A stretch of 46,353 bases of DNA, taken from the IMG/VR virus record IMGVR_UViG_2711768010_000018. One strand, given 5' to 3'. Below the pieces are notes generated by a model that saw only the letters and a list, made by a program, of their open reading frames with translations, searched no databases and was not told the origin of the DNA. The position numbers and the translations under genes were made by a program. This document shows, piece by piece, positions 1,553 through 18,122 of this stretch. Each line of letters begins with the position of its first letter. Positions within the stretch are counted from its first letter, which is position 1. This stretch comes from a virus (taxonomy: Duplodnaviria; Heunggongvirae; Uroviricota; Caudoviricetes).

Positions 1553-1741
1553 TCACGAGGACTGAAGTTTCTCGCAATTAAAATTTATCAGTTTTACTTT
1601 CTGCTCTCTGGAAACGCCTGCTTCTTTTTTACCTGAGAGCATTTTTTCGCATTCTGATTTCGTTAGTTTAGATTTTGAATATCTTGTCCAGTTAGTAGGA
1701 GTGCCACCTTCCTTTTCAATAGTGGCGGTAATTTTATACAT
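1553..1741 (-). CDS. ydaC: Small hypothetical protein (YdaC-like), start MYKITATIEKEGG...
   Basis: ORF 1553..1813 in track; the ATG at 1741-1739 overlaps the end of the ralR-like frame (ATGTATAA overlap), typical of a coupled phage early operon. Confidence 0.55.
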   Translation of the reverse strand: MYKITATIEKEGGTPTNWTRYSKSKLTKSECEKMLSGKKEAGVSREQKVKLINFNCEKLQSS

Positions 1742-6670: not shown

Positions 6671-7159
6671 ATGTTGGATGTATTTACTCCATTGTTGAAA
6701 CTTTTTGCTAACGAGCCACTCGAAATACTTATGTATACGATTATCATTTTTGGTCTCACTCTCTGGCTGATACCGAAAGAGTTTACTGTCGCATTCAATG
6801 CTTATACTGAAATACCTTGGCTCTTTCAGATTATCGTTTTTGCCTTTTCTTTCGTGGTCGCCATTTCCTTCTCAAGATTGCGAGCACATATTCAAAAGCA
6901 TTATTCATTACTACCAGAGCAACGAGTATTGCTTCGTTTATCTGAGAAAGAAATCGCTGTATTTAAAGATTTCCTTAAAACAGGAAATCTTATTATCACT
7001 TCTCCTTGCCGTAACCCGGTTATGAAAAAATTAGAACGGAAGGGCATCATTCAACATCAGAGTGATAGCGCAAACTGTTCTTATTATCTCGTCACCGAAA
7101 AATACTCCCATTTTATGAAGTTATTCTGGAACAGCAGGAGTAGACGTTTTAATCGTTAG
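6671..7159 (+). CDS. sieB: Superinfection exclusion protein SieB, 162 aa membrane protein
   Basis: ORF track 6548..7159; internal ATG at 6671 gives MLDVFTPLLKLF... with hydrophobic N-terminal segments, matching recalled SieB. Confidence 0.82.
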   Translation: MLDVFTPLLKLFANEPLEILMYTIIIFGLTLWLIPKEFTVAFNAYTEIPWLFQIIVFAFSFVVAISFSRLRAHIQKHYSLLPEQRVLLRLSEKEIAVFKDFLKTGNLIITSPCRNPVMKKLERKGIIQHQSDSANCSYYLVTEKYSHFMKLFWNSRSRRFNR

Positions 7160-7311
7160 CTTACTGTGTGCTTCTCCAACCATCGGCGCGCACCAGTTTC
7201 GGTTTTAAATGTTTTGCTTTTGGTATACGTCATGGCAGTGAACGTTCCATCCTGGTTGGGGAACACGCCGCACACCAGGGATTCGTTGTTGCCGAGGTCG
7301 ATTTTTTGCAT
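7156..7311 (-). CDS. ydaF: Small hypothetical protein, 51 aa (MQKIDLGNNESLVCGVFPNQDGTFTAMTYTKSKTFKTETGARRWLEKHTVS), likely YdaF
   Basis: Hand-translated minus-strand ORF below the track cut-off, located between sieB and ydaG; length equals the 51 aa I recall for YdaF. Confidence 0.45.
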   Translation of the reverse strand: MQKIDLGNNESLVCGVFPNQDGTFTAMTYTKSKTFKTETGARRWLEKHTVS

Positions 7312-7321
7312 TTTGCGAATC

Positions 7322-7456
7322 TCACATCTTGTTGCTGTGTATAGCGACTTCTGCCTGCCAGAGATCCCAGTCGTTGCTGCGTAAAGCCTGCACAGCCTGG
7401 TTGTAAGTGATACCGCAACAATCCATCAAATACTGAACTACTTCGTAATGCACCAT
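7322..7456 (-). CDS. ydaG: Small protein YdaG-like, 44 aa (MVHYEVVQYLMDCCGITYNQAVQALRSNDWDLWQAEVAIHSNKM)
   Basis: ORF track 7322..7504; the internal ATG at 7456 is preceded on the minus strand by AAGGGGAGAG (strong RBS). Confidence 0.65.
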   Translation of the reverse strand: MVHYEVVQYLMDCCGITYNQAVQALRSNDWDLWQAEVAIHSNKM

Positions 7457-7647
7457 CTTATCTCTCCCCTTAACGCCGGGTGGCGGAACTGAAACCTGCT
7501 GCACTGCAAAATCTGAACCCTGCCGTCATGTTCATACGCCTCGGGCTGGCTACTTAACCCCTGACCACTGCCTGGTAACTCGAAGTATTGCCCTGCGTTC
7601 TGTGGGGCGGGGTGGGTTGGTAGGTATATAATGTACTTTGTGTTCAT
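7438..7647 (-). CDS. Hypothetical 69 aa protein downstream of racR
   Basis: ORF track only; ATG at 7645-7647 but no convincing RBS. Could be non-coding. Confidence 0.3.
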   Translation of the reverse strand: MNTKYIIYLPTHPAPQNAGQYFELPGSGQGLSSQPEAYEHDGRVQILQCSRFQFRHPALRGEIRWCITK

Positions 7648-7746
7648 TGATGTAAAGTACTATAAGTACATTTTGTGTGTAAAAAAATGAGATGGGATAA
7701 AGTGAAGCACAAACCCGGAGGGGGACGCTACCGGATTTATGCTGGT

Positions 7747-8166
7747 TTAAGAGGCTTTTTGTTTTTTCTTTCGTGCTAGCTCTTCGTAAATTGCATTGTA
7801 CTTCTGTTTTTTCTCCTCAAGAGTTTTTAAAAGTTCATCTGTCTCACTGTCAGGGAGCTCGTCCAGAAGGTCAATGATGATTTTTTGTCTTGGATTTAAC
7901 TCCTGATAGAAACGTACCTGTCCACTTTCTTCTGTATCCTCTCCCAAAAGATAGGTTGGTGTTGTTCCAATGAGTGTTGCTAATTCCCTTAATTTCTCTC
8001 GGCGAGGAATTGTTTCGCCATTAAACCATTTGCTAACCGCTTTTGGTGTTAATTTCATTCGACGGGCAATTTCTGCCTGCCTTCCATGTTGTTCATAACC
8101 AGCGTTTTCACAGGCTAGCGCAAGCCTACTGGCGAACTCTTTACGCGCTTTATCTTCATGAACCAT
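7747..8166 (-). CDS. racR: Prophage repressor (cI-like, HTH XRE family), 139 aa from ATG (track uses an upstream GTG at 8184)
   Basis: ORF track 7747..8184; helix-turn-helix-like segment (QAEIARRMKLTPKAVSKWFNGE); divergent from the cro-like ydaS. Confidence 0.8.
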   Translation of the reverse strand: MVHEDKARKEFASRLALACENAGYEQHGRQAEIARRMKLTPKAVSKWFNGETIPRREKLRELATLIGTTPTYLLGEDTEESGQVRFYQELNPRQKIIIDLLDELPDSETDELLKTLEEKKQKYNAIYEELARKKKQKAS

Positions 8167-8245
8167 AAGTTCAATGATATTCACTCTTGAATGTACTGTC
8201 AGTTCTGTTATAGCATGTACTCAAAGTTCACATTGTGAGGGTGAT
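8167..8245. promoter_or_regulatory. Divergent racR/ydaS promoter-operator region (immunity switch)
   Basis: 79 bp between divergent repressor and cro-like genes; repeated motifs ATGTACT (x2) and AAGTTCA (x2) visible. Confidence 0.45.
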
Positions 8246-8500
8246 ATGAACCAGAAAACACTTGAAGATGTAATCAAAACTGTTCGCGTTTCTGTTGTGG
8301 CCGACGTTTGTGGTGTCAGCCAAAGAGCAATCTACAAATGGATGGATAACGGAAAATTGCCTCGCACAGAATATACCGGCGAAACAAATTACGCTGAAAA
8401 AATCGCTCATGCATCAAACGGATTATTTTCTGCTGATGTAATTTTAACTATTGGCAGAAATAAAACTACTACGAAAAAGCTGATGGGAGTTGATTCATGA
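8246..8500 (+). CDS. ydaS: Cro-like HTH regulator, 84 aa from MNQKTLEDV...
   Basis: ORF track 8174..8500; the internal ATG at 8246 has a GAGGGTGAT RBS; HTH-like segment (VADVCGVSQRAIYKWMDNGKLP); stop overlaps the ydaT start (ATGA). Confidence 0.75.
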   Translation: MNQKTLEDVIKTVRVSVVADVCGVSQRAIYKWMDNGKLPRTEYTGETNYAEKIAHASNGLFSADVILTIGRNKTTTKKLMGVDS

Positions 8501-8919
8501 AAATCAAGCATGAGCACATCGAGTCAGTGTTGTTAGCCCTGGCAGCCGAAAAAGGGCAGGCATGGGTAGCCAATGCCATTACTGAAGAATATCTGCGCCA
8601 GGGGGGCGGCGAATTGCCCCTGGTACCAGGCAAGGACTGGAATAATCAGCAGAATATCTATCACCGTTGGTTGAAAGGTGAAACGAAAACGCAAAGAGAA
8701 AAAATTCAGAAGCTGATCCCAGCAATTCTGGCAATCCTTCCGCGCGAGCTGCGTCACCGACTCTGCATCTTCGATACCCTGGAACGCCGTGCATTACTGG
8801 CGGCGCAGGAAGCGTTAAGTACGGCAATTGATGCGCATGATGATGCAGTCCAAGCCGTTTACCGGAAAGCGCATTTCAGCGGCGGCGGGTCTTCCGACGA
8901 TTCTGTCATTGTTCATTAA
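8497..8919 (+). CDS. ydaT: YdaT-like protein, 140 aa
   Basis: ORF translationally coupled to ydaS; position and length match Rac YdaT. Confidence 0.75.
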   Translation: MKIKHEHIESVLLALAAEKGQAWVANAITEEYLRQGGGELPLVPGKDWNNQQNIYHRWLKGETKTQREKIQKLIPAILAILPRELRHRLCIFDTLERRALLAAQEALSTAIDAHDDAVQAVYRKAHFSGGGSSDDSVIVH

Positions 8920-8931
8920 GCAAAAGTTTCC

Positions 8932-9789
8932 ATGCTGTTTGTGCTTATTCTAAGCCACCGGGCAGCATCATACGGGGCAATTATGGCCGCATTACCATAC
9001 ATGCAACTGTACATAGCTGATTACCTGGCTGACACCATGCATTTGTCAGCAGAGGAGCATGGTGCGTATTTGTTGCTGATGTTCAATTACTGGCAAACAG
9101 GAAAGCCAATACCTAAAAACAGGCTGGCAAAAATTGCCCGTCTGACTAACGAGCGATGGGCTGATGTTGAACCATCCTTGCAGGAGTTTTTTTGCGATAA
9201 CGGCGAGGAATGGGTGCATCTTCGGATTGAGGAAGATCTGGCATCAGTCAGGGAAAAATTAACCAAAAAATCAGCCGCAGGAAAAGCATCTGTTCAGGCC
9301 AGAAGAAGCAGAAAGGAAGCAGATGTTCAAACAAAACAAGAGAGAAATTTAACAGGTGTTCAAACAGATGTTGAAGTGGTGTTTGAACATGATGTCAACA
9401 CAAAGGCAACTAATAAAGATACAGATAAAGATCTAAAAACAGATCCCCCCCTAAATCCCCCCCGGGGGAATCGAGGTGTCAAAAAGTTTGACCCTCTGGA
9501 TATTGCTTTGCCGAACTGGATTTCTGTCTCGCTTTGGCGTGAGTGGGTTGAATTTCGCCAGGCATTGCGAAAACCGATTCGAACGGAGCAGGGCGCTAAC
9601 GGGGCGATACGGGAGCTGGAAAAATTCCGCCAGCAGGGTTTTTCACCTGAGCAGGTGATTCGACACAGCATCGCCAATGAATACCAGGGCTTGTTCGCGC
9701 CGAAAGGTGTTCGACCTGAGACGTTACTCCGACAGGTTAACACCGTCTCGTTACCGGATAGTGCGATCCCGCCAGGCTTCAGGGGGTAA
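8932..9789 (+). CDS. ydaU: Replication initiation protein (YdaU / DUF1376-type, lambda-O analogue), 285 aa
   Basis: ORF immediately upstream of the DnaC-like loader; contains two poly-C tracts (9445-9465). Confidence 0.75.
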   Translation: MLFVLILSHRAASYGAIMAALPYMQLYIADYLADTMHLSAEEHGAYLLLMFNYWQTGKPIPKNRLAKIARLTNERWADVEPSLQEFFCDNGEEWVHLRIEEDLASVREKLTKKSAAGKASVQARRSRKEADVQTKQERNLTGVQTDVEVVFEHDVNTKATNKDTDKDLKTDPPLNPPRGNRGVKKFDPLDIALPNWISVSLWREWVEFRQALRKPIRTEQGANGAIRELEKFRQQGFSPEQVIRHSIANEYQGLFAPKGVRPETLLRQVNTVSLPDSAIPPGFRG

Positions 9790-9795
9790 CTGACC

Positions 9796-10542
9796 ATGAA
9801 AAATATTGCGACAGGCGACGTTCTTGAACGTATCCGCAGACTGGCCCCGTCACATGTAACCGCGCCATTCAAGACGGTAGCGGAGTGGCGCGAGTGGCAA
9901 CTTTCCGAAGGCCAGAAACGTTGTGAGGAGATCAACCGTCAGAATCGTCAGTTGCGGGTGGAAAAAATTCTGAATCGCTCTGGCATCCAGCCATTGCACC
10001 GCAAATGCTCGTTTTCGAATTACCAGGTGCAGAACGAAGCGCAGCGATACGCGTTGAGTCAGGCGAAATCCATCGCTGATGAACTGATGACCGGGTGTAC
10101 AAATTTTGCGTTCAGCGGAAAACCTGGTACCGGGAAGAACCACTTAGCGGCAGCTATCGGGAATCGCCTGCTGAAAGACGGTCAGACAGTGATTGTGGTT
10201 ACCGTGGCTGATGTTATGAGTGCCCTGCACGCCAGCTATGACGATGGGCAGTCAGGCGAAAAATTTTTGCGGGAACTATGCGAAGTGGATCTGCTGGTTC
10301 TTGATGAAATTGGCATTCAGCGCGAGACGAAAAACGAGCAGGTGGTGCTGCACCAGATTGTTGATCGCCGGACAGCGTCGATGCGCAGCGTGGGGATGCT
10401 GACAAACCTGAACTATGAGGCCATGAAAACATTGCTCGGCGAGCGGATTATGGATCGCATGACCATGAACGGCGGGCGATGGGTGAATTTTAACTGGGAG
10501 AGCTGGCGTCCGAATGTCGTCCAGCCAGGAATTGAGAAGTAA
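9796..10542 (+). CDS. ydaV: DnaC/IstB-like AAA+ helicase loader, 248 aa
   Basis: Walker A motif [13 protein letters not shown] and Walker B LLVLDEIG visible in the translation. Confidence 0.85.
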
Positions 10543-11758: not shown

Positions 11759-11915
11759 ACGTTACTAGATCAAAGAGCATTAGTTCATATGTAAATTGAC
11801 ATTTTTCTGGCACAGGGGAGAGCTAGCGTGGTTGTCCGCTTTGTGCCAATAGCGGACATTGCTGGCTCATGGTATGTTAGTTTAAGGAGGCAGGTTATGC
11901 CCTGTATTTCGCTGT

Positions 11916-11924
11916 GGTATAATA
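11916..11924 (+). promoter_or_regulatory. Extended -10 promoter element TGgTATAAT upstream of the cargo operon
   Basis: Exact TGGTATAAT at 11916-11924, about 30 bp upstream of the AAGGGAG RBS (11941-11947) and GTG at 11957; compositional shift to AT-rich DNA begins here. Confidence 0.45.
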
Positions 11925-11956
11925 GTTGCGCAATTGATACAAGGGAGCGTTACATC

Positions 11957-12919
11957 GTGAAAATTGTTTTCGAGGTTAATGGAAAGAAAGTTCCACTAAA
12001 ATCTTTAAAATACATAAGCAAAAAAGATCAACTCGAAGTAATGAAAAACTGGTTCTTTGAAAACTTTGAAGATCCGGCAAATGCTTGTCCGTATGAAAGT
12101 AGAGAAGGTGGCTATGCTTACATATATGGCGGGCCGTATGATGCGAGCGAAGAACTACAATCCATCTTCGGTCAATATGTTAAATCTGAGTATATTGAGG
12201 AATTAGTAGATGAATTACAAACACAATGTTTTGACTGGTCTGGAAACTCAAATAATATAGATGATTGGTACGATGATGATATCTACGACGCTGTAACGTC
12301 TTCCGGTAATCCGTATTTAAAATTCATTGATAATATCGATAAAATAAAAAAACTTGCAAAAGATAAAACTGAACAACAGCAAAAAAACCACTTGCTTAGT
12401 TTGCTCTACACGAATGTTATTACAGCTTTGGAAACGCTTTATGTTGAGCTATTCATTAATTCTATAGAGAAAGATGATGTCTACATAGCCAATTGTATAG
12501 AAAAAGGTAAGACTGAATTTAAAGTAAGCAAAGATATTGCTGCGTTGCCTTTCAAGGGTGAACCCATCGAGAAAATTAGGGGAGAGCTAATCAGGTCAAT
12601 CAAGGAACACTTGATCAGTGCAAGCTGGCATAGCACTAAAAAGGTAATCGACCGCTATGAAGCTACATTCGATATAAAAGTACAAAAAGACTGTCCGATA
12701 GAAGCTATTGAATTGGCAACCCTCAATCGAAATCACTTAGTGCATCGTGGTGGAAAGGATAAAGAAGGGAACCTCGTAGTGATTACAGACCAGGATCTTG
12801 AAACGCTGATTGAAAATGCATCGAACCTGGCAATTATGCTCTACAACAGTTTAAATGTAGCAACGAATAAAACCACCATTTTGCAACCAGATGACAAACC
12901 GTTCATTCATGAATTTTAA
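11957..12919 (+). CDS. Cargo protein A: unknown N-terminal region with a C-terminal HEPN-like Rx4H motif (NRNHLVHRGG); about 320 aa from GTG 11957 (alternative starts ATG 11897 or GTG 11828)
   Basis: AT-rich ORF (track 11828..12919); RBS AAGGGAG 9 nt before the in-frame GTG at 11957; the R-x4-H motif in a helical C-terminal half is typical of HEPN RNase domains. No family recognised with certainty. Confidence 0.6.
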   Translation: MKIVFEVNGKKVPLKSLKYISKKDQLEVMKNWFFENFEDPANACPYESREGGYAYIYGGPYDASEELQSIFGQYVKSEYIEELVDELQTQCFDWSGNSNNIDDWYDDDIYDAVTSSGNPYLKFIDNIDKIKKLAKDKTEQQQKNHLLSLLYTNVITALETLYVELFINSIEKDDVYIANCIEKGKTEFKVSKDIAALPFKGEPIEKIRGELIRSIKEHLISASWHSTKKVIDRYEATFDIKVQKDCPIEAIELATLNRNHLVHRGGKDKEGNLVVITDQDLETLIENASNLAIMLYNSLNVATNKTTILQPDDKPFIHEF

Positions 12920-12934
12920 TAGCGCAGGTCATAC

Positions 12935-13936
12935 ATGGATATTCGCACACGAAAGACAAAATTTTTAGAGTCGTTAGATTCAACTGAAGTGATACGCAAA
13001 GCAGTAAGTCTCGCTATAGATTGCATTATTGATAATCATAATAGTAATGAAGATACCCCCTTAGTTATTACCAGCTATGATGATCTCTGTAGAATCCAGG
13101 TGCTAAATTATGTACAGGAGTTTTGCGAAGCTGCATTCCCTGATATGGATGAATATTACTTTAGTCCTAACATACTTCGCATCAACGGCAAGACTAGTGA
13201 AGAAGCTTGTATTAACTTAATTAAACTCTTAAGAAGTACAAAAGGCATGCTATTCTGGTCCGATGCCCCATCGTGGTTCGCTAGCCTCCCCGACGGATTA
13301 TTCCATGTTGTTAACATTGATCAAAAAATCGTTACTCGCGGCCTTAATAAGAAAAACTCTAAGCCGACAATAATCAATAAAGATTACAGTGTAGATACAC
13401 TACTATCAGAGCTATTTTTGAATGGCGCACACATGGAGCAACCCAACGTACACAACGTTTCTGAGGGAAACATGAAGTTCTATGATGAATGCCATGCTGG
13501 ATTAATCAGACCAATACCCGCTCCAATAGGCGCGTCATACGATGAAGAGATCACAATTAATTCTCCAGATTGGCAAAAGCTCGCGTGTGTAGCTTTACGC
13601 CGCTATCAGTCGAAGGAATGTCATGACGGAATGCAATGGGATACAACCGATCATGGTTGGACTGATGTAATCGCGTATCCATTCGTCGAAGAAATACAAT
13701 CAATGGATAATAGTGGTTATCGACAATGTTTAGTTGGGCTGGTCACAATAAACAATTCAAATGCAAATTCTCCGTACCTATCTACCGTTTGGATACATCC
13801 ATTTTATCGCAGGAGAGGGTTATTAAGTAAGTTATGGCCAAAATTACAAGAGTTATATGGAAGTAACTTCGAAATTGAGCGACCTAATGAAAATATGAAA
13901 GCATTTCTGAAAAGTGCGAAACACGCAGATTACTAA
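12935..13936 (+). CDS. Cargo protein B: 333 aa with a C-terminal GNAT-like acetyltransferase signature (VWIHPFYRRRGLLSKLW)
   Basis: ATG at 12935 is 15 nt after the stop of protein A (same strand, likely operon); AT-rich; the C-terminal 120 aa resemble GNAT motif A (R-x-x-G-x-G/A-like) plus downstream motif; N-terminal 200 aa unrecognised. Confidence 0.65.
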   Translation: MDIRTRKTKFLESLDSTEVIRKAVSLAIDCIIDNHNSNEDTPLVITSYDDLCRIQVLNYVQEFCEAAFPDMDEYYFSPNILRINGKTSEEACINLIKLLRSTKGMLFWSDAPSWFASLPDGLFHVVNIDQKIVTRGLNKKNSKPTIINKDYSVDTLLSELFLNGAHMEQPNVHNVSEGNMKFYDECHAGLIRPIPAPIGASYDEEITINSPDWQKLACVALRRYQSKECHDGMQWDTTDHGWTDVIAYPFVEEIQSMDNSGYRQCLVGLVTINNSNANSPYLSTVWIHPFYRRRGLLSKLWPKLQELYGSNFEIERPNENMKAFLKSAKHADY

Positions 13937-14490
13937 TTTATGAATCAGTCTGTGGAGTTAGGGTTGGTGTGAACAAGTAGGGTAAGAGCCTCAACGTGAT
14001 GCTATGCCGACCTGCTCCCTGAGAATTCACACAGAAGGCTGCTAGCAATGTCTGCAGATCGCTCAAAGCGGACTAAAATGTTGGCTTGTTTCTGACTTAG
14101 AGCATTTAAGGAAGTGCTGGTGGTGACTGGTTGTTGTGTTCCATTTCTACAGAATAAAATCACAGAAACTATACCCAATAGTTGTATTGAATCACTGACG
14201 AGACAGCCTCATATTTATCAGGACTGGTGTGCGTCTAATACAGGGGGTTGTCGTGCTGGTTCTCAAATGTGCGCTGGCTATTGCGGCTGTAATGGCAATT
14301 TATTGTCTTGCTGTTGTTCTTATGGAGCGGCTTTCTGATTGATTACATACTGGCTAGAAAAAAGGTGTTACCTTGGTTTATCTTTGTCCGGCAAGGTGCG
14401 CTCATTAATCTTAAGTAAATTTATTGCTCAAGTATTCAGATTACTTCTTATGGTTGAAGTCTCCTGTCAATGTAGAACCAATATATTTAC

Positions 14491-14526
14491 AAAAATGAGA
14501 CCCGTCGGGGATAGCCCTGCCGGGTC
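14491..14526 (-). terminator. Putative rho-independent terminator downstream of the yeaR-like gene
   Basis: Stem GACCCG (14499-14504) / CGGGTC (14521-14526); on the minus strand the hairpin is followed by TCATTTTT. Confidence 0.4.
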
Positions 14527-14556
14527 TGACTGTTAAAGCATTTTTAATATGATCAT

Positions 14557-14895
14557 CTATTTTTTGGTGCTATAGACTTTTTCGCCCGAAAAGTCTGGAG
14601 CGACCCAAAAGTTAATATTAAACTGAGCATCATCGCTTAGTTCAACACGGTGCCAGTATTGTGGTGGGCTTGTTGCAAAAGCGCCAGCATTAATGACTAC
14701 TTTTATCTCCGGTTCAGTAGCATTCTCATCAGTAAAACCATAATATGTTACAGTGCCTTCCATTACGCACAACTGCCCAAAAACACCTGCTGCTGTATTA
14801 TGATGTGTTAATAACGCTGAAGGTACGTTCTCTTTTGTGAAGAACGGAGTTGAGCGTTTGATTACCCAATCTTTAGGAATTCTCTTGTGTGTCAT
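14557..14895 (-). CDS. YeaR-like DUF1971 protein, 112 aa from MTHKRIPKDW...
   Basis: ORF track 14557..14919; the internal ATG at 14895 is preceded on the minus strand by GGAGGAGG; sequence resembles chromosomal YeaR as I recall it (STPFF..., FNIDFFVAP-like C-terminus). Confidence 0.7.
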   Translation of the reverse strand: MTHKRIPKDWVIKRSTPFFTKENVPSALLTHHNTAAGVFGQLCVMEGTVTYYGFTDENATEPEIKVVINAGAFATSPPQYWHRVELSDDAQFNINFWVAPDFSGEKVYSTKK

Positions 14896-15708
14896 AACCA
14901 CCTCCTCCAAAACATGCATTAAAAATGCATCTTTTGGAGGGTTATGTCAAGCTGTTATGAAACACATAATTGATATGTTGATTAGAGGAGAAGATAGAAT
15001 AAATATGGTTGTTTTTCGTATAACTATTTGTTTTACTTTTAGTTTATGCATTCTGTGTGTTAGGAATAAGTTATTAAAGTTTAATCAAAAAATCTCGATG
15101 TAGTCCACATAGATTACTGTTACTGAACCTTATTGTGTGTATTAGTTGTGTTCTGAAATTTCAGCTTAATTATTTATGATGTATTTTTTAACGATAAATA
15201 TTTTCCCAGGATACCTTTACTGTGTATATAAATAAATTATATACGCATAAATAATGTAAAGGCGTCCTTTTAGATATATCTTATCAAATGTTAATGACTT
15301 GAGTGGGAAATATGATTCCAGCAACTTATCATGTGGCTACTTTATAAAAATAATGCCCATATAAAACAACAAGCGAAAAGGATTACGGATAAAAAAGGAG
15401 CGAGATGTGCGAACTTGTTATTTTCCATGTTTAACCACCTTAAATAATTGATGATGACGGGATGATTGCATCTGTAATGCTTTTATTGAAATGTTATGAT
15501 AAAAAAGAACTTTTGCATAACATTAAAATGTAATTTATCTAATCGTTTTTAATAATAAGTGTCGTATTTCTATCCTTGTACCAGCTATTTGATATGTAGT
15601 GTTTGTTCATGCTATGTGGGGCTTTACACCATAGCCAGTTTATTTATACTTTATTCGTCAGCCTGAACAACTGGCATCTGCTGCGCTGCGCCATCGAGAG
15701 ATTGAGAA

Positions 15709-17590: not shown

Positions 17591-18122
17591 GGGCTGGTTT
17601 ATTGTATGCCAAATGATTATTAAAAAGGTTGTGTTAATAACAAGATCCGAAATAATATGCCTGCATATTTTTATCTTGCTTATATTCTGCATATTGTGCA
17701 TAGCAGGCTCATCCCTGCAATCAAAACTGTATGATGAGTATTTTTTGTTTTCCTTTTTTCCAGTCATCTGATGATGACCTGCTTCTTTTTAATCCGGATC
17801 GACATCAGTTTTTTAAGATAATTCCTGCGAGTTATATGCATAAATGCCACAAACTCCGCATTTTATGTGGTTGGGAGTTGCCGGGCGCGCAGTGAGTTTG
17901 CTAAGAAAACTCCTGCATGGTGAATCCCCCTGTGCGGTGGGGTGATACCATTAACCTTTTCTGTCGCCGACAGGTATCACGAACATTTTGTTCACCGGGA
18001 GGCACCCGGCACCATGCACTTCAATAGATTCTCTCCACATTATGGATATTCTTTCAGAATATCCCACGCAGACTTTGTGTAAATGTTAACAAATGTGCGT
18101 TTTATTTGATCTGATTCGCTGT

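What the first reader, a model, noticed from the sequence alone, without database searches (positions are those of the whole stretch)
11897..13936. AT-rich two-gene cargo operon: HEPN-like protein followed by a GNAT-domain protein (candidate toxin or anti-phage defence module)
Two co-oriented genes 15 nt apart have markedly AT-rich composition relative to the flanking phage genes. They sit in the nin-region hotspot between the replication genes and the nin/Q genes, and have their own extended -10 promoter (TGGTATAAT at 11916-11924). Protein A (about 320 aa) has no recognisable N-terminal domain but ends with a helical region carrying NRNHLVHRGG, an R-x4-H motif typical of HEPN RNases. Protein B (333 aa) has an unrecognised N-terminal 200 aa and a C-terminal region with a GNAT-like acetyl-CoA-binding signature (VWIHPFYRRRGLLSKLW). 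HEPN and GNAT domains each occur in known toxin-antitoxin and abortive-infection systems, but I do not recognise this pairing or architecture as a described system.
Basis: partly seen in the sequence, partly recalled or inferred. Interest (0 to 1): 0.8.

Follow-up and report, generated by a model that had tools for sequence, protein, structure and literature searches.

The report
Published phage-defence operon DS-33 (HEPN + GNAT)
The two AT-rich prophage genes are real and do form an anti-phage defence cassette, but it was already published and tested as system DS-33: the HEPN RNase gene does the defending, and the role of the acetyltransferase gene is still unknown.

Summary
Two co-oriented, AT-rich genes lie 15 nt apart in a Rac-type prophage, behind a perfect extended -10. 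A is at 11957-12919 (320 aa) and B at 12935-13936 (333 aa). The domain calls also hold. A has a HEPN/RES-NTD1 domain plus a RiboL-PSP-type HEPN domain with an invariant R258-x4-H263. B has an orphan N-terminal domain plus a GNAT fold.

The claim of an undescribed pairing fails. Protein A is identical to DS-33A, and B differs by one residue (P289L) from DS-33B of DeWeirdt et al. (DefensePredictor; bioRxiv 2025, Science 2026). Their supplementary tables record 2-6 log protection of E. coli K-12 against T7, T3, Bas67 and Bas26. Deleting the HEPN gene or mutating R258 abolished defence. Deleting the GNAT gene left it intact or slightly stronger.

New here:
- A-family genes are normally solo.
- B is a narrow gammaproteobacterial family that is also found solo.
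- The A+B cassette (about 11834-14010) is a lineage-specific unit, present in 209 of 5426 complete E. coli genomes.
- A has been deleted repeatedly while B stayed intact.
- The tested B allele is a rare variant at a family-invariant GNAT residue.

The trigger, the RNA target and B's role remain open. Novelty: already known.

The parts
11834..14010 (+). Mobile DS-33 cassette: promoter region, gene A, gene B and a short 3' tail
   Evidence: Cross-genus nucleotide homology runs from 11834 to 14010 with Serratia grimesii (L003, 97%) and from 11898 to 13978 with Aeromonas caviae (L085, 86%). The same unit lies in a different lambdoid prophage at ompW in E. coli ATCC 11775.
11915..11923 (+). Candidate extended -10 promoter TGgTATAAT
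   Evidence: It is the only occurrence in the window. The region is kept in the Enterobacter deletion derivatives, where about 11833-11933 is joined to the last 77 nt before B. Function is inferred. The published clone with its native upstream region was active, but the promoter itself was not mapped.
11957..12919 (+). Gene A = DS-33A (WP_014639476.1), 320 aa, the HEPN effector
   Evidence: The sequence is identical to the published DS-33A. RefSeq annotates it as a hypothetical protein. The published HEPN-gene deletion abolishes defence.
11957..12256 (+). HEPN/RES N-terminal domain 1 (A residues about 1-100), the presumed sensor or regulatory module
   Evidence: Pfam PF18870 scores 22.2 bits here, below the 27.4 cutoff, but at or above the cutoff in some homologues. 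The motif P45, G58-G59-P60, F71, W94 is invariant in 64 homologues. The same domain is fused to a PIN_8 nuclease in other proteins.
12314..12886 (+). RiboL-PSP-type HEPN domain (A residues about 120-310)
12728..12745 (+). HEPN catalytic motif R258-N-H-L-V-H263
   Evidence: Position. R258, H263 and R264 are invariant in the family. The published R258A mutant loses defence against all five phages in two replicates.
12935..13936 (+). Gene B = DS-33B homologue (WP_000354966.1), 333 aa, the accessory GNAT protein
   Evidence: It differs from the tested DS-33B (WP_000354965.1) only at P289L. The published GNAT-gene deletion keeps defence.
12935..13444 (+). Orphan N-terminal alpha/beta domain of B (residues about 1-170)
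   Evidence: It is modelled with confidence (overall pLDDT 90.6). It has no Pfam match and no sequence match in the PDB. Among 1.84 billion representative proteins it is found only in B-family proteins.
13445..13933 (+). GNAT acetyltransferase fold of B (residues about 171-333)
13790..13819 (+). GNAT motif A, W286-I-H-P289-F-Y-R292-R-R-G295 (acetyl-CoA pyrophosphate loop)
   Evidence: W286, H288 and P289 are present in 44 of 44 family members covering the column, and R292 in 45 of 45. P289 (codon 13799-13801) is Leu in the allele that was tested experimentally.

Best explanation
The locus is the defence system DS-33, carried as a 2.2-kb cargo cassette in a Rac-type prophage.

Shown by published experiments on an identical A and a near-identical B:
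- The operon, with its native upstream region on a low-copy plasmid, protects E. coli K-12 against T7, T3, Bas67 and Bas26, and weakly against T5.
- Gene A and its HEPN arginine R258 are required.
- Gene B is not required.

Shown here:
- A is a two-domain protein: a HEPN/RES-NTD1 module followed by a RiboL-PSP-type HEPN domain.
- Relatives of A are normally stand-alone genes in defence islands.
- B is a GNAT with a family-specific N-terminal domain. It was joined to A only in one narrow lineage.

Inferred mechanism:
- A is made constitutively and sits as an inactive HEPN dimer or oligomer.
- An infection cue is sensed through the NTD1 module.
- That activates the composite R-x4-H RNase site, which cuts host or phage RNA. 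By analogy with HepS, DARNA and PrrC the target is most likely tRNA anticodon loops. Translation and phage production stop.
- B is an accessory factor. The most likely role is to raise A's activation threshold by acetylating A or its substrate. Alternatively it is an independent cargo gene that is merely co-transcribed.
For: - Identity: A is 320/320 identical to DS-33A, and B is 332/333 identical to DS-33B with the same 15-nt spacing.
- Wild-type phenotype, as -log10 efficiency of plating in Table S7 of PMC13092281: T7 3.0, 3.8, 2.6; T3 3.5, 3.3, 2.4; Bas67 2.3, 4.0, 2.0; Bas26 4.7, 5.0, 5.9.
- Mutants: the HEPN-gene deletion and R258A give about 0-0.8 for all phages. The GNAT-gene deletion gives T7 4.8/4.3, T3 3.3/3.3, Bas67 4.0/3.3, Bas26 5.0/4.9 and T5 1.7/0.5.
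- A is normally solo. Of 80 species-representative loci, only the three with A at 98% identity or more carry B. No B remnants were found elsewhere, and the neighbours are variable defence-type genes such as SIR2, TIR, DUF6119 and ResIII.
- The NTD1 module is also fused to a PIN nuclease, as expected of a swappable sensor or regulator.
- B as an antitoxin-like or independent gene: A was deleted or truncated while B stayed intact in Citrobacter and Enterobacter and in 4 E. coli genomes. B is solo in Shewanella, Marinomonas, Idiomarina and a Serratia ICE.
- Precedents for single-protein HEPN defences that cut tRNA: HepS and DARNA, which has a similar T3/T5/T7 range.
Against: - No RNase activity, RNA target, trigger, oligomeric state or abortive-infection phenotype has been reported for DS-33. 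The paper does not discuss it in the text.
- The sensor role of NTD1 rests only on domain architecture.
- The gain in defence without B is small: means of +1.35, +0.45, +0.66 and +0.72 log for four phages and -0.5 for Bas26. That is within spot-assay noise, and it could reflect an expression change in the deletion construct.
- The tested B allele carries P289L at a family-invariant GNAT residue, so B's dispensability has not been shown for the allele in this window.
- Solo B homologues at 39-62% identity argue against B being a dedicated regulator of A.
Confidence: 0.85

Rival explanations
1. B is an independent defence or counter-defence cargo gene with its own target. It shares a promoter with A and does not act on A.
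For: - B-family genes occur without any A in Shewanella algae, Marinomonas, Idiomarina, a Serratia ICE and next to Mu-like phage genes. They always lie in mobile or island contexts, for example beside Abi_2-like, AAA_14/DUF4143, Mrr and ParE genes.
- B stays intact after A is lost.
- A defends without B.
- DefensePredictor gave B a weakly positive log-odds of 1.08.
Against: - B alone (the HEPN-gene deletion) gave no protection against the five phages tested. Only five phages and only the P289L allele were tried.
- The tight 15-nt spacing is conserved between E. coli and Aeromonas.
- All B genes at 79% identity or more that were inspected (one further contig starts too close to B to tell) derive from an A-B unit, as shown by A remnants.
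Confidence: 0.35
2. The pair is a toxin-antitoxin module of the type VII kind. A is a constitutively toxic HEPN RNase, and B neutralises it enzymatically by acetylation, as MntA does to HepT by AMPylation.
For: - Orphan B genes left behind after A deletions resemble orphan antitoxins.
- Defence is slightly stronger without B.
Against: - The GNAT-deletion strain was viable and fully protective from the native promoter.
- Nearly all A relatives, down to 76% identity, live without B or any constant partner.
- B has solo relatives with no A.
Confidence: 0.1
3. B is the toxin or effector, a TacT/AtaT-like GNAT that acetylates aminoacyl-tRNA, and A controls it.
For: GNAT toxins are known in toxin-antitoxin systems (established knowledge; reviewed in PMC7180214, listed). 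B has a GNAT fold.
Against: - Defence persists without B and is lost without A or R258.
- B survives intact in genomes where A is deleted, which would be lethal for an uncontrolled toxin.
- B is twice the size of TacT-type toxins and has no DUF1778/RHH partner.
Confidence: 0.03
4. The genes are ordinary phage replication, structural or metabolic genes, and the AT-richness is incidental.
For: The pair lies among early-region prophage genes, and both PHROGs families are annotated 'unknown function'.
Against: - An anti-phage phenotype has been published.
- The cassette moves between unrelated prophages, a mobilisable island and plasmids.
- It is absent from sequenced phages in INPHARED.
Confidence: 0.02

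Closest known systems
DS-33 (DS-33A/DS-33B; lab code 'GNAT') of DeWeirdt et al., DefensePredictor, Science 2026 (PMC13092281; bioRxiv 10.1101/2025.01.08.631726)
   Same: A is identical (WP_014639476.1). B is 332/333 identical. Gene order, 15-nt spacing and upstream region are the same.
   Different: The window carries the common B allele with P289, seen on at least 1000 contigs. The tested clone carries the rare P289L allele, seen on 31 contigs. The prophage host context may also differ.
PD-T4-2 (Vassallo et al. 2022): DUF262 protein plus a RiboL-PSP HEPN protein
   Same: The HEPN subfamily is the same (PF18735). The DefensePredictor authors' profile search links DS-33A to PD-T4-2_B at probability 96.1 over 55% of the protein. 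The domain table in PMC10952713 agrees.
   Different: There is no DUF262 partner. DS-33A has the NTD1 module. Neither protein hits a PADLOC PD-T4-2 model. The phage range also differs: PD-T4-2 acts against T4.
HepS (Gifsy-1 prophage single-protein HEPN abortive-infection system; Sargen et al., Nature 2026)
   Same: It is a prophage-encoded HEPN protein that senses and acts on its own. It is an R-x4-H nuclease and is carried as lambdoid-prophage cargo.
DARNA / PD-T7-3 (single HEPN protein with an ssDNA-sensing domain)
   Same: It combines a sensor domain and a HEPN domain in one protein, and its range (T3, T5, T7) overlaps. It is a tRNA anticodon nuclease, which provides a mechanistic template.
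   Different: The domain order is reversed (HEPN at the N-terminus), and its sensor is a Pds5-like domain. No sequence relationship was detected, and it has no partner gene.
HepT/MntA type VII toxin-antitoxin systems
   Different: The partner there is a nucleotidyltransferase, not a GNAT. That antitoxin is essential, whereas B is dispensable here.
GNAT toxins TacT/AtaT/ItaT/KacT
   Same: They share the GNAT fold.
   Different: B is 333 aa with a unique N-terminal domain, has no RHH/DUF1778 antitoxin, is not required for the phenotype and is tolerated alone.

Membership tests
DS-33 defence system (DefensePredictor) | First gene encodes DS-33A (WP_014639476.1) | tested here: met
   The window protein is 320/320 identical to the sequence in Table S8. 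RefSeq gives the same accession at this position in strain NCTC10444.
DS-33 defence system (DefensePredictor) | Second gene encodes DS-33B (WP_000354965.1), 15 nt downstream on the same strand | tested here: met
   The proteins are 332/333 identical, differing only at P289L. The published transcription unit spans 6922-7884 and 7900-8901, giving the same 15-nt gap.
DS-33 defence system (DefensePredictor) | Confers phage resistance that depends on gene A and R258 | not testable with these tools
   Published plaque assays show it. The exact allele pair of this window (B with P289) has not been assayed.
HEPN superfamily RNase | R-x4-6-H motif conserved in the family | tested here: met
   RNHLVH lies at residues 258-263. 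R258, H263 and R264 are invariant in 64 homologues.
HEPN superfamily RNase | Helical HEPN fold | tested here: met
HEPN superfamily RNase | Match to a curated HEPN profile (PF18735 RiboL-PSP-HEPN) above its cutoff | tested here: inconclusive
   The window protein gives no PF18735 hit at E <= 1. Homologues at 31-58% identity (P0101, P0113 and P0061) reach 28.5-36.1 bits against a cutoff of 28.4, and many carry the precomputed domain.
HEPN superfamily RNase | RNA cleavage activity | not testable with these tools
   Only genetic evidence exists: R258A abolishes defence.
HEPN/RES N-terminal domain 1 (PF18870) proteins | Profile match to PF18870 in the N-terminal 100 residues | tested here: inconclusive
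   The window protein scores 22.2 bits against a cutoff of 27.4. Family members score 25-29.6 bits, some above the cutoff. The core motif is invariant in the family alignment.
GNAT acetyltransferases | GNAT fold | tested here: met
GNAT acetyltransferases | Motif A, Q/R-x-x-G-x-G/A, after strand beta-4 | tested here: inconclusive
   The sequence is R292-R-R-G295-L-L. The Arg is invariant and the Gly is present in 37 of 45 members, but the second G/A is replaced by Leu or Lys. Pfam PF00583 scores 19.9 bits against a cutoff of 20.7.
GNAT acetyltransferases | Acetyl-CoA binding and acyl transfer | not testable with these tools
   No biochemical data exist.
Type II/VII toxin-antitoxin module | One partner is needed to neutralise the other, so the pair is inseparable | tested here: not met
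   A relatives are solo in 77 of 80 loci. B relatives are solo in at least 4 genera. The published GNAT-deletion strain is viable and defends.
PD-T4-2 | DUF262 partner gene, and match to the PADLOC PD-T4-2 models | tested here: not met
   There is no DUF262 gene in the cassette, and neither protein hits a PADLOC PD-T4-2 model at E <= 1.

The most novel reading that the evidence does not exclude
The GNAT protein may be a real, enzymatically active regulator that tunes the HEPN effector by acetylating A itself or its tRNA substrate. That would be an acetylation-based counterpart of HepT/MntA control, perhaps letting the prophage escape its own abortive-infection gene.

The published 'dispensable' result would then understate its role, because the clone carried a rare P289L substitution at a family-invariant residue of the acetyl-CoA loop.

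Alternatively, B and its orphan N-terminal domain may define a new stand-alone mobile-element immunity or counter-immunity gene.
Probability: 0.3. Interest if true: 0.55.

Novelty: already known. Interest (0 to 1): 0.25.

Why it matters
As a discovery it adds little. The cassette was predicted, cloned and shown to defend against T7-like phages and Bas26, with weak effect on T5, in a 2025 preprint that became a 2026 Science paper.

What is still worth knowing is mechanistic:
- what triggers a widespread family of solo HEPN proteins built on the NTD1 module;
- which RNA they cut;
- why one lineage picked up a GNAT partner that then outlives the effector when the cassette decays.

Two results here sharpen that question. 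The allele tested experimentally is atypical at an invariant GNAT residue. The two genes are separable in evolution.

Tried and rejected
- PADLOC v2 models: no meaningful hit for A or B.
- NCBIfam: nothing.
- PHROGs: only 'unknown function' families 17908 and 16994.
- INPHARED phages: no DNA match to the cassette. By protein search there was no B, and only two remote A homologues.
- Identity of B's N-terminal domain: a profile search against PDB sequences gave nothing below E 0.4. Pfam gave nothing. BFVD Foldseek gave GNAT hits only. The exhaustive phmmer search found only B-family proteins and one spurious LRR protein.
- A constant partner for solo A genes: none found. Most have no ORF within 120 nt downstream, and the adjacent genes are heterogeneous.
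- B remnants beside solo A genes: none.
- Consensus promoter/terminator scan: it did not list the extended -10, because it requires a -35, and it found no intrinsic terminator after B.
- The NAR 2026 'domain-centric' screen: it mentions neither HEPN nor GNAT.
- Literature search by WP accession in main texts: nothing found. The match was in supplementary tables only.
Full report
**1. The observation**

The six-frame ORF list shows two + strand ORFs at the stated place. Gene A's mechanical ORF begins at 11828. The finding's start, 11897, is an in-frame ATG. RefSeq, the published clone and the aligned N-termini of 64 homologues all use the GTG at 11957. That start is preceded by AAGGGAG and gives 320 aa. 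Gene B runs 12935-13936 (333 aa), and the gap between the genes is 15 nt.

GC content is 0.361 for A and 0.391 for B, against 0.498 and 0.491 for the flanking phage genes. It is a perfect extended -10 without a usable -35, which is why the consensus scan omits it. The R-x4-H motif RNHLVH lies at A residues 258-263, and VWIHPFYRRRG at B residues 285-295.

The surrounding genes identify a Rac-type lambdoid prophage: intR, xisR, ralR, recET, kilR, sieB, ydaT/U/V, then DUF1627 and DUF977 before the pair and DUF1367/DUF1364/DUF1133 after it. The pair sits between the replication genes and the nin-type genes.

**2. What the proteins are**

**3. It is a published system**

A full-text search led to the DefensePredictor paper. 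Its supplementary tables contain WP_014639476.1, the RefSeq accession of A.

- Table S6 lists the transcription unit NZ_QOWT01000046.1 6922-8901, with proteins WP_014639476.1 and WP_000354965.1, under lab code 'GNAT'. It is marked as validated and named DS-33.
- The printed sequences show that A is identical to the window protein and that B differs only at P289L.
- Table S7 gives the assays. The unit with its native upstream region, on a low-copy plasmid in MG1655, reduced plating of Bas26 by 4.7-5.9 logs, T7 by 2.6-3.8, T3 by 2.4-3.5 and Bas67 by 2.0-4.0. T5 was barely affected.
- Deleting the HEPN gene or mutating R258 to alanine removed protection against all five phages in both replicates.
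- Deleting the GNAT gene left protection unchanged or somewhat higher: T7 4.8/4.3, T3 3.3/3.3, Bas67 4.0/3.3, Bas26 5.0/4.9, T5 1.7/0.5.
- Table S8 records a remote profile match of DS-33A to PD-T4-2_B (RiboL-PSP-HEPN), at probability 96.1.

Neither the Science text nor the preprint discusses DS-33. The pairing is a described system.

**4. New comparative evidence on how the two genes relate**

*In E. coli the genes travel together.* A and B each match in 209 of 5426 complete genomes, 208 of them at 99% identity or more. Contexts include at least two different lambdoid prophages and three plasmid locations. Cross-genus homology delimits the mobile unit to about 11834-14010.

*Outside this lineage the genes separate.* A pattern-plus-tblastn scan of one genome per species returned 80 A-family loci from Proteobacteria, Acidobacteriota, Chloroflexota, cyanobacteria and others. 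Only the three with A at 98% identity or more have a B gene within 5 kb. A relatives at 76%, 75%, 67% and lower identity have neither B nor B remnants. They also have no constant neighbour. The adjacent genes are heterogeneous and defence-like: SIR2_2, TIR, DUF6119, DUF5677, M78 peptidase, ResIII.

*B is a narrow gammaproteobacterial family.* It has 66 clusters. An A+B pair with the same spacing occurs in Aeromonas caviae, on a relaxase-bearing island beside SIR2 and cREC_REC genes. B homologues at 39-62% identity stand alone in Shewanella, Marinomonas, Idiomarina and a Serratia ICE, and in Motilimonas B lies next to Mu-like phage genes at the start of its contig.

*Cassette decay removes A and spares B.* The 86%-identical 'solo' B genes of Citrobacter and Enterobacter still carry wreckage of A. 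One set keeps only the last 192 nt of A (residues 257-320). Another has an internal deletion that joins the promoter region (about 11833-11933) to the last 77 nt before B. Four E. coli genomes likewise have a truncated A with B at least 80% covered.

*The tested B allele is atypical.* P289 lies in the GNAT beta-4/motif A segment W-I-H-P-F-Y-R-R-x-G. It is present in all 44 family sequences that cover the column. The window's P289 allele is recorded on at least 1000 contigs, and the tested L289 allele on 31.

**5. Most likely mechanism**

Shown:
- Defence needs A and its HEPN arginine.
- Defence does not need B.
- A-family genes work in nature without B.

Inferred:
- A is expressed from the cassette's own promoter and rests as an inactive HEPN dimer or oligomer. 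HEPN active sites are composite across a dimer, which is established knowledge.
- The NTD1 module senses or relays an infection cue.
- The activated RNase cuts RNA and stops translation. By analogy with the single-protein HEPN defences HepS and DARNA (with a similar T3/T5/T7 range), the target is probably tRNA anticodon loops.

B's role is unresolved. Two readings remain open.
- *Damper of A.* It may acetylate A or its substrate. This fits the small gain in defence without B and the pattern of orphaned B genes.
- *Independent cargo gene.* It may simply share the promoter. This fits the solo B homologues in other mobile elements.

A strict toxin-antitoxin reading is disfavoured, because the GNAT-deletion strain is viable and both genes are separable. 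A 'GNAT toxin' reading is contradicted by the deletions and by intact B genes left after A was lost.

**6. Comparison with known systems**

- DS-33: this locus is a member (identical A, near-identical B, same layout).
- PD-T4-2B: A shares its HEPN subfamily, but there is no DUF262 partner and no match to the PADLOC PD-T4-2 models.
- HepS and DARNA: A works like them in outline but is not a member of either family.
- HepT/MntA: the resemblance is only that a HEPN protein sits next to a modifying enzyme.

**7. Verdict**

It is wrong on novelty, on the 'unrecognisable' N-terminus of A, and on the implied obligate pairing. Novelty is 'already known' and overall interest is low.

The residual interest is mechanistic: the trigger, the RNA target, and a GNAT partner whose only functional test used an atypical allele.

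Noticed in passing
window 13799-13801 (B codon 289): The experimentally tested DS-33B allele has Leu at this position. The window and at least 1000 public contigs have Pro, which is invariant in 44 of 44 B-family sequences and lies in the GNAT acetyl-CoA loop. The published 'GNAT dispensable' result may therefore not transfer to the common allele.
   Followed up: yes
L090-L094 (Citrobacter/Enterobacter loci); window equivalents 11833-11933 and 12858-12934: These 'solo' B genes carry remnants of A, from two independent deletion events. One leaves only A residues 257-320. The other fuses the promoter region to the last 77 nt before B.
   Followed up: yes
window 9796-10542 and 12935-13936 (protein P0148): An E. 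coli 320-aa protein, seen on 9 contigs, fuses YdaV residues 1-119 to B from about residue 133. It marks a prophage deletion that removed DUF1627, DUF977, A and the N-terminus of B.
   Followed up: partly
L085-L087 (Aeromonas caviae), genes at about 7221-9293: The Aeromonas copy of the cassette sits on a relaxase-bearing island directly beside convergent SIR2 and cREC_REC genes, which are probably another defence system.
   Followed up: no
window 13937-15708: A second AT-rich stretch (GC 0.27-0.44) follows the cassette. It holds only a minus-strand DUF1971 gene (14557-14895) and roughly 800 nt with no annotated gene (about 14900-15700). In E. coli ATCC 11775 the equivalent position carries hokD.
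   Followed up: no
window 1557-1735 and 1779-1928: The RalA antitoxin sRNA (Rfam RF02694, 225 bits) lies opposite the ralR type I toxin gene of the Rac prophage.
   Followed up: no
window 17885-18071: There is a match to the gammaproteobacterial sRNA STnc100 (Rfam RF02076, 86.6 bits) downstream of the DUF1133 gene.
   Followed up: no
L002 (JAIHTM010000277.1, 'Collinsella sp.' MAG): A 3.3-kb contig binned as the actinobacterium Collinsella carries the E. coli cassette at 99.7-100% amino-acid identity. This is most likely binning contamination.
   Followed up: no
window 11897-11956: Some gene callers start A at the ATG at 11897, giving 340 aa (cluster representative P0001; the PHROG 17908 profile is 340 positions long). 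The extended -10 lies inside that extension, and homologues begin at the GTG at 11957, so the longer call is probably wrong.
   Followed up: partly
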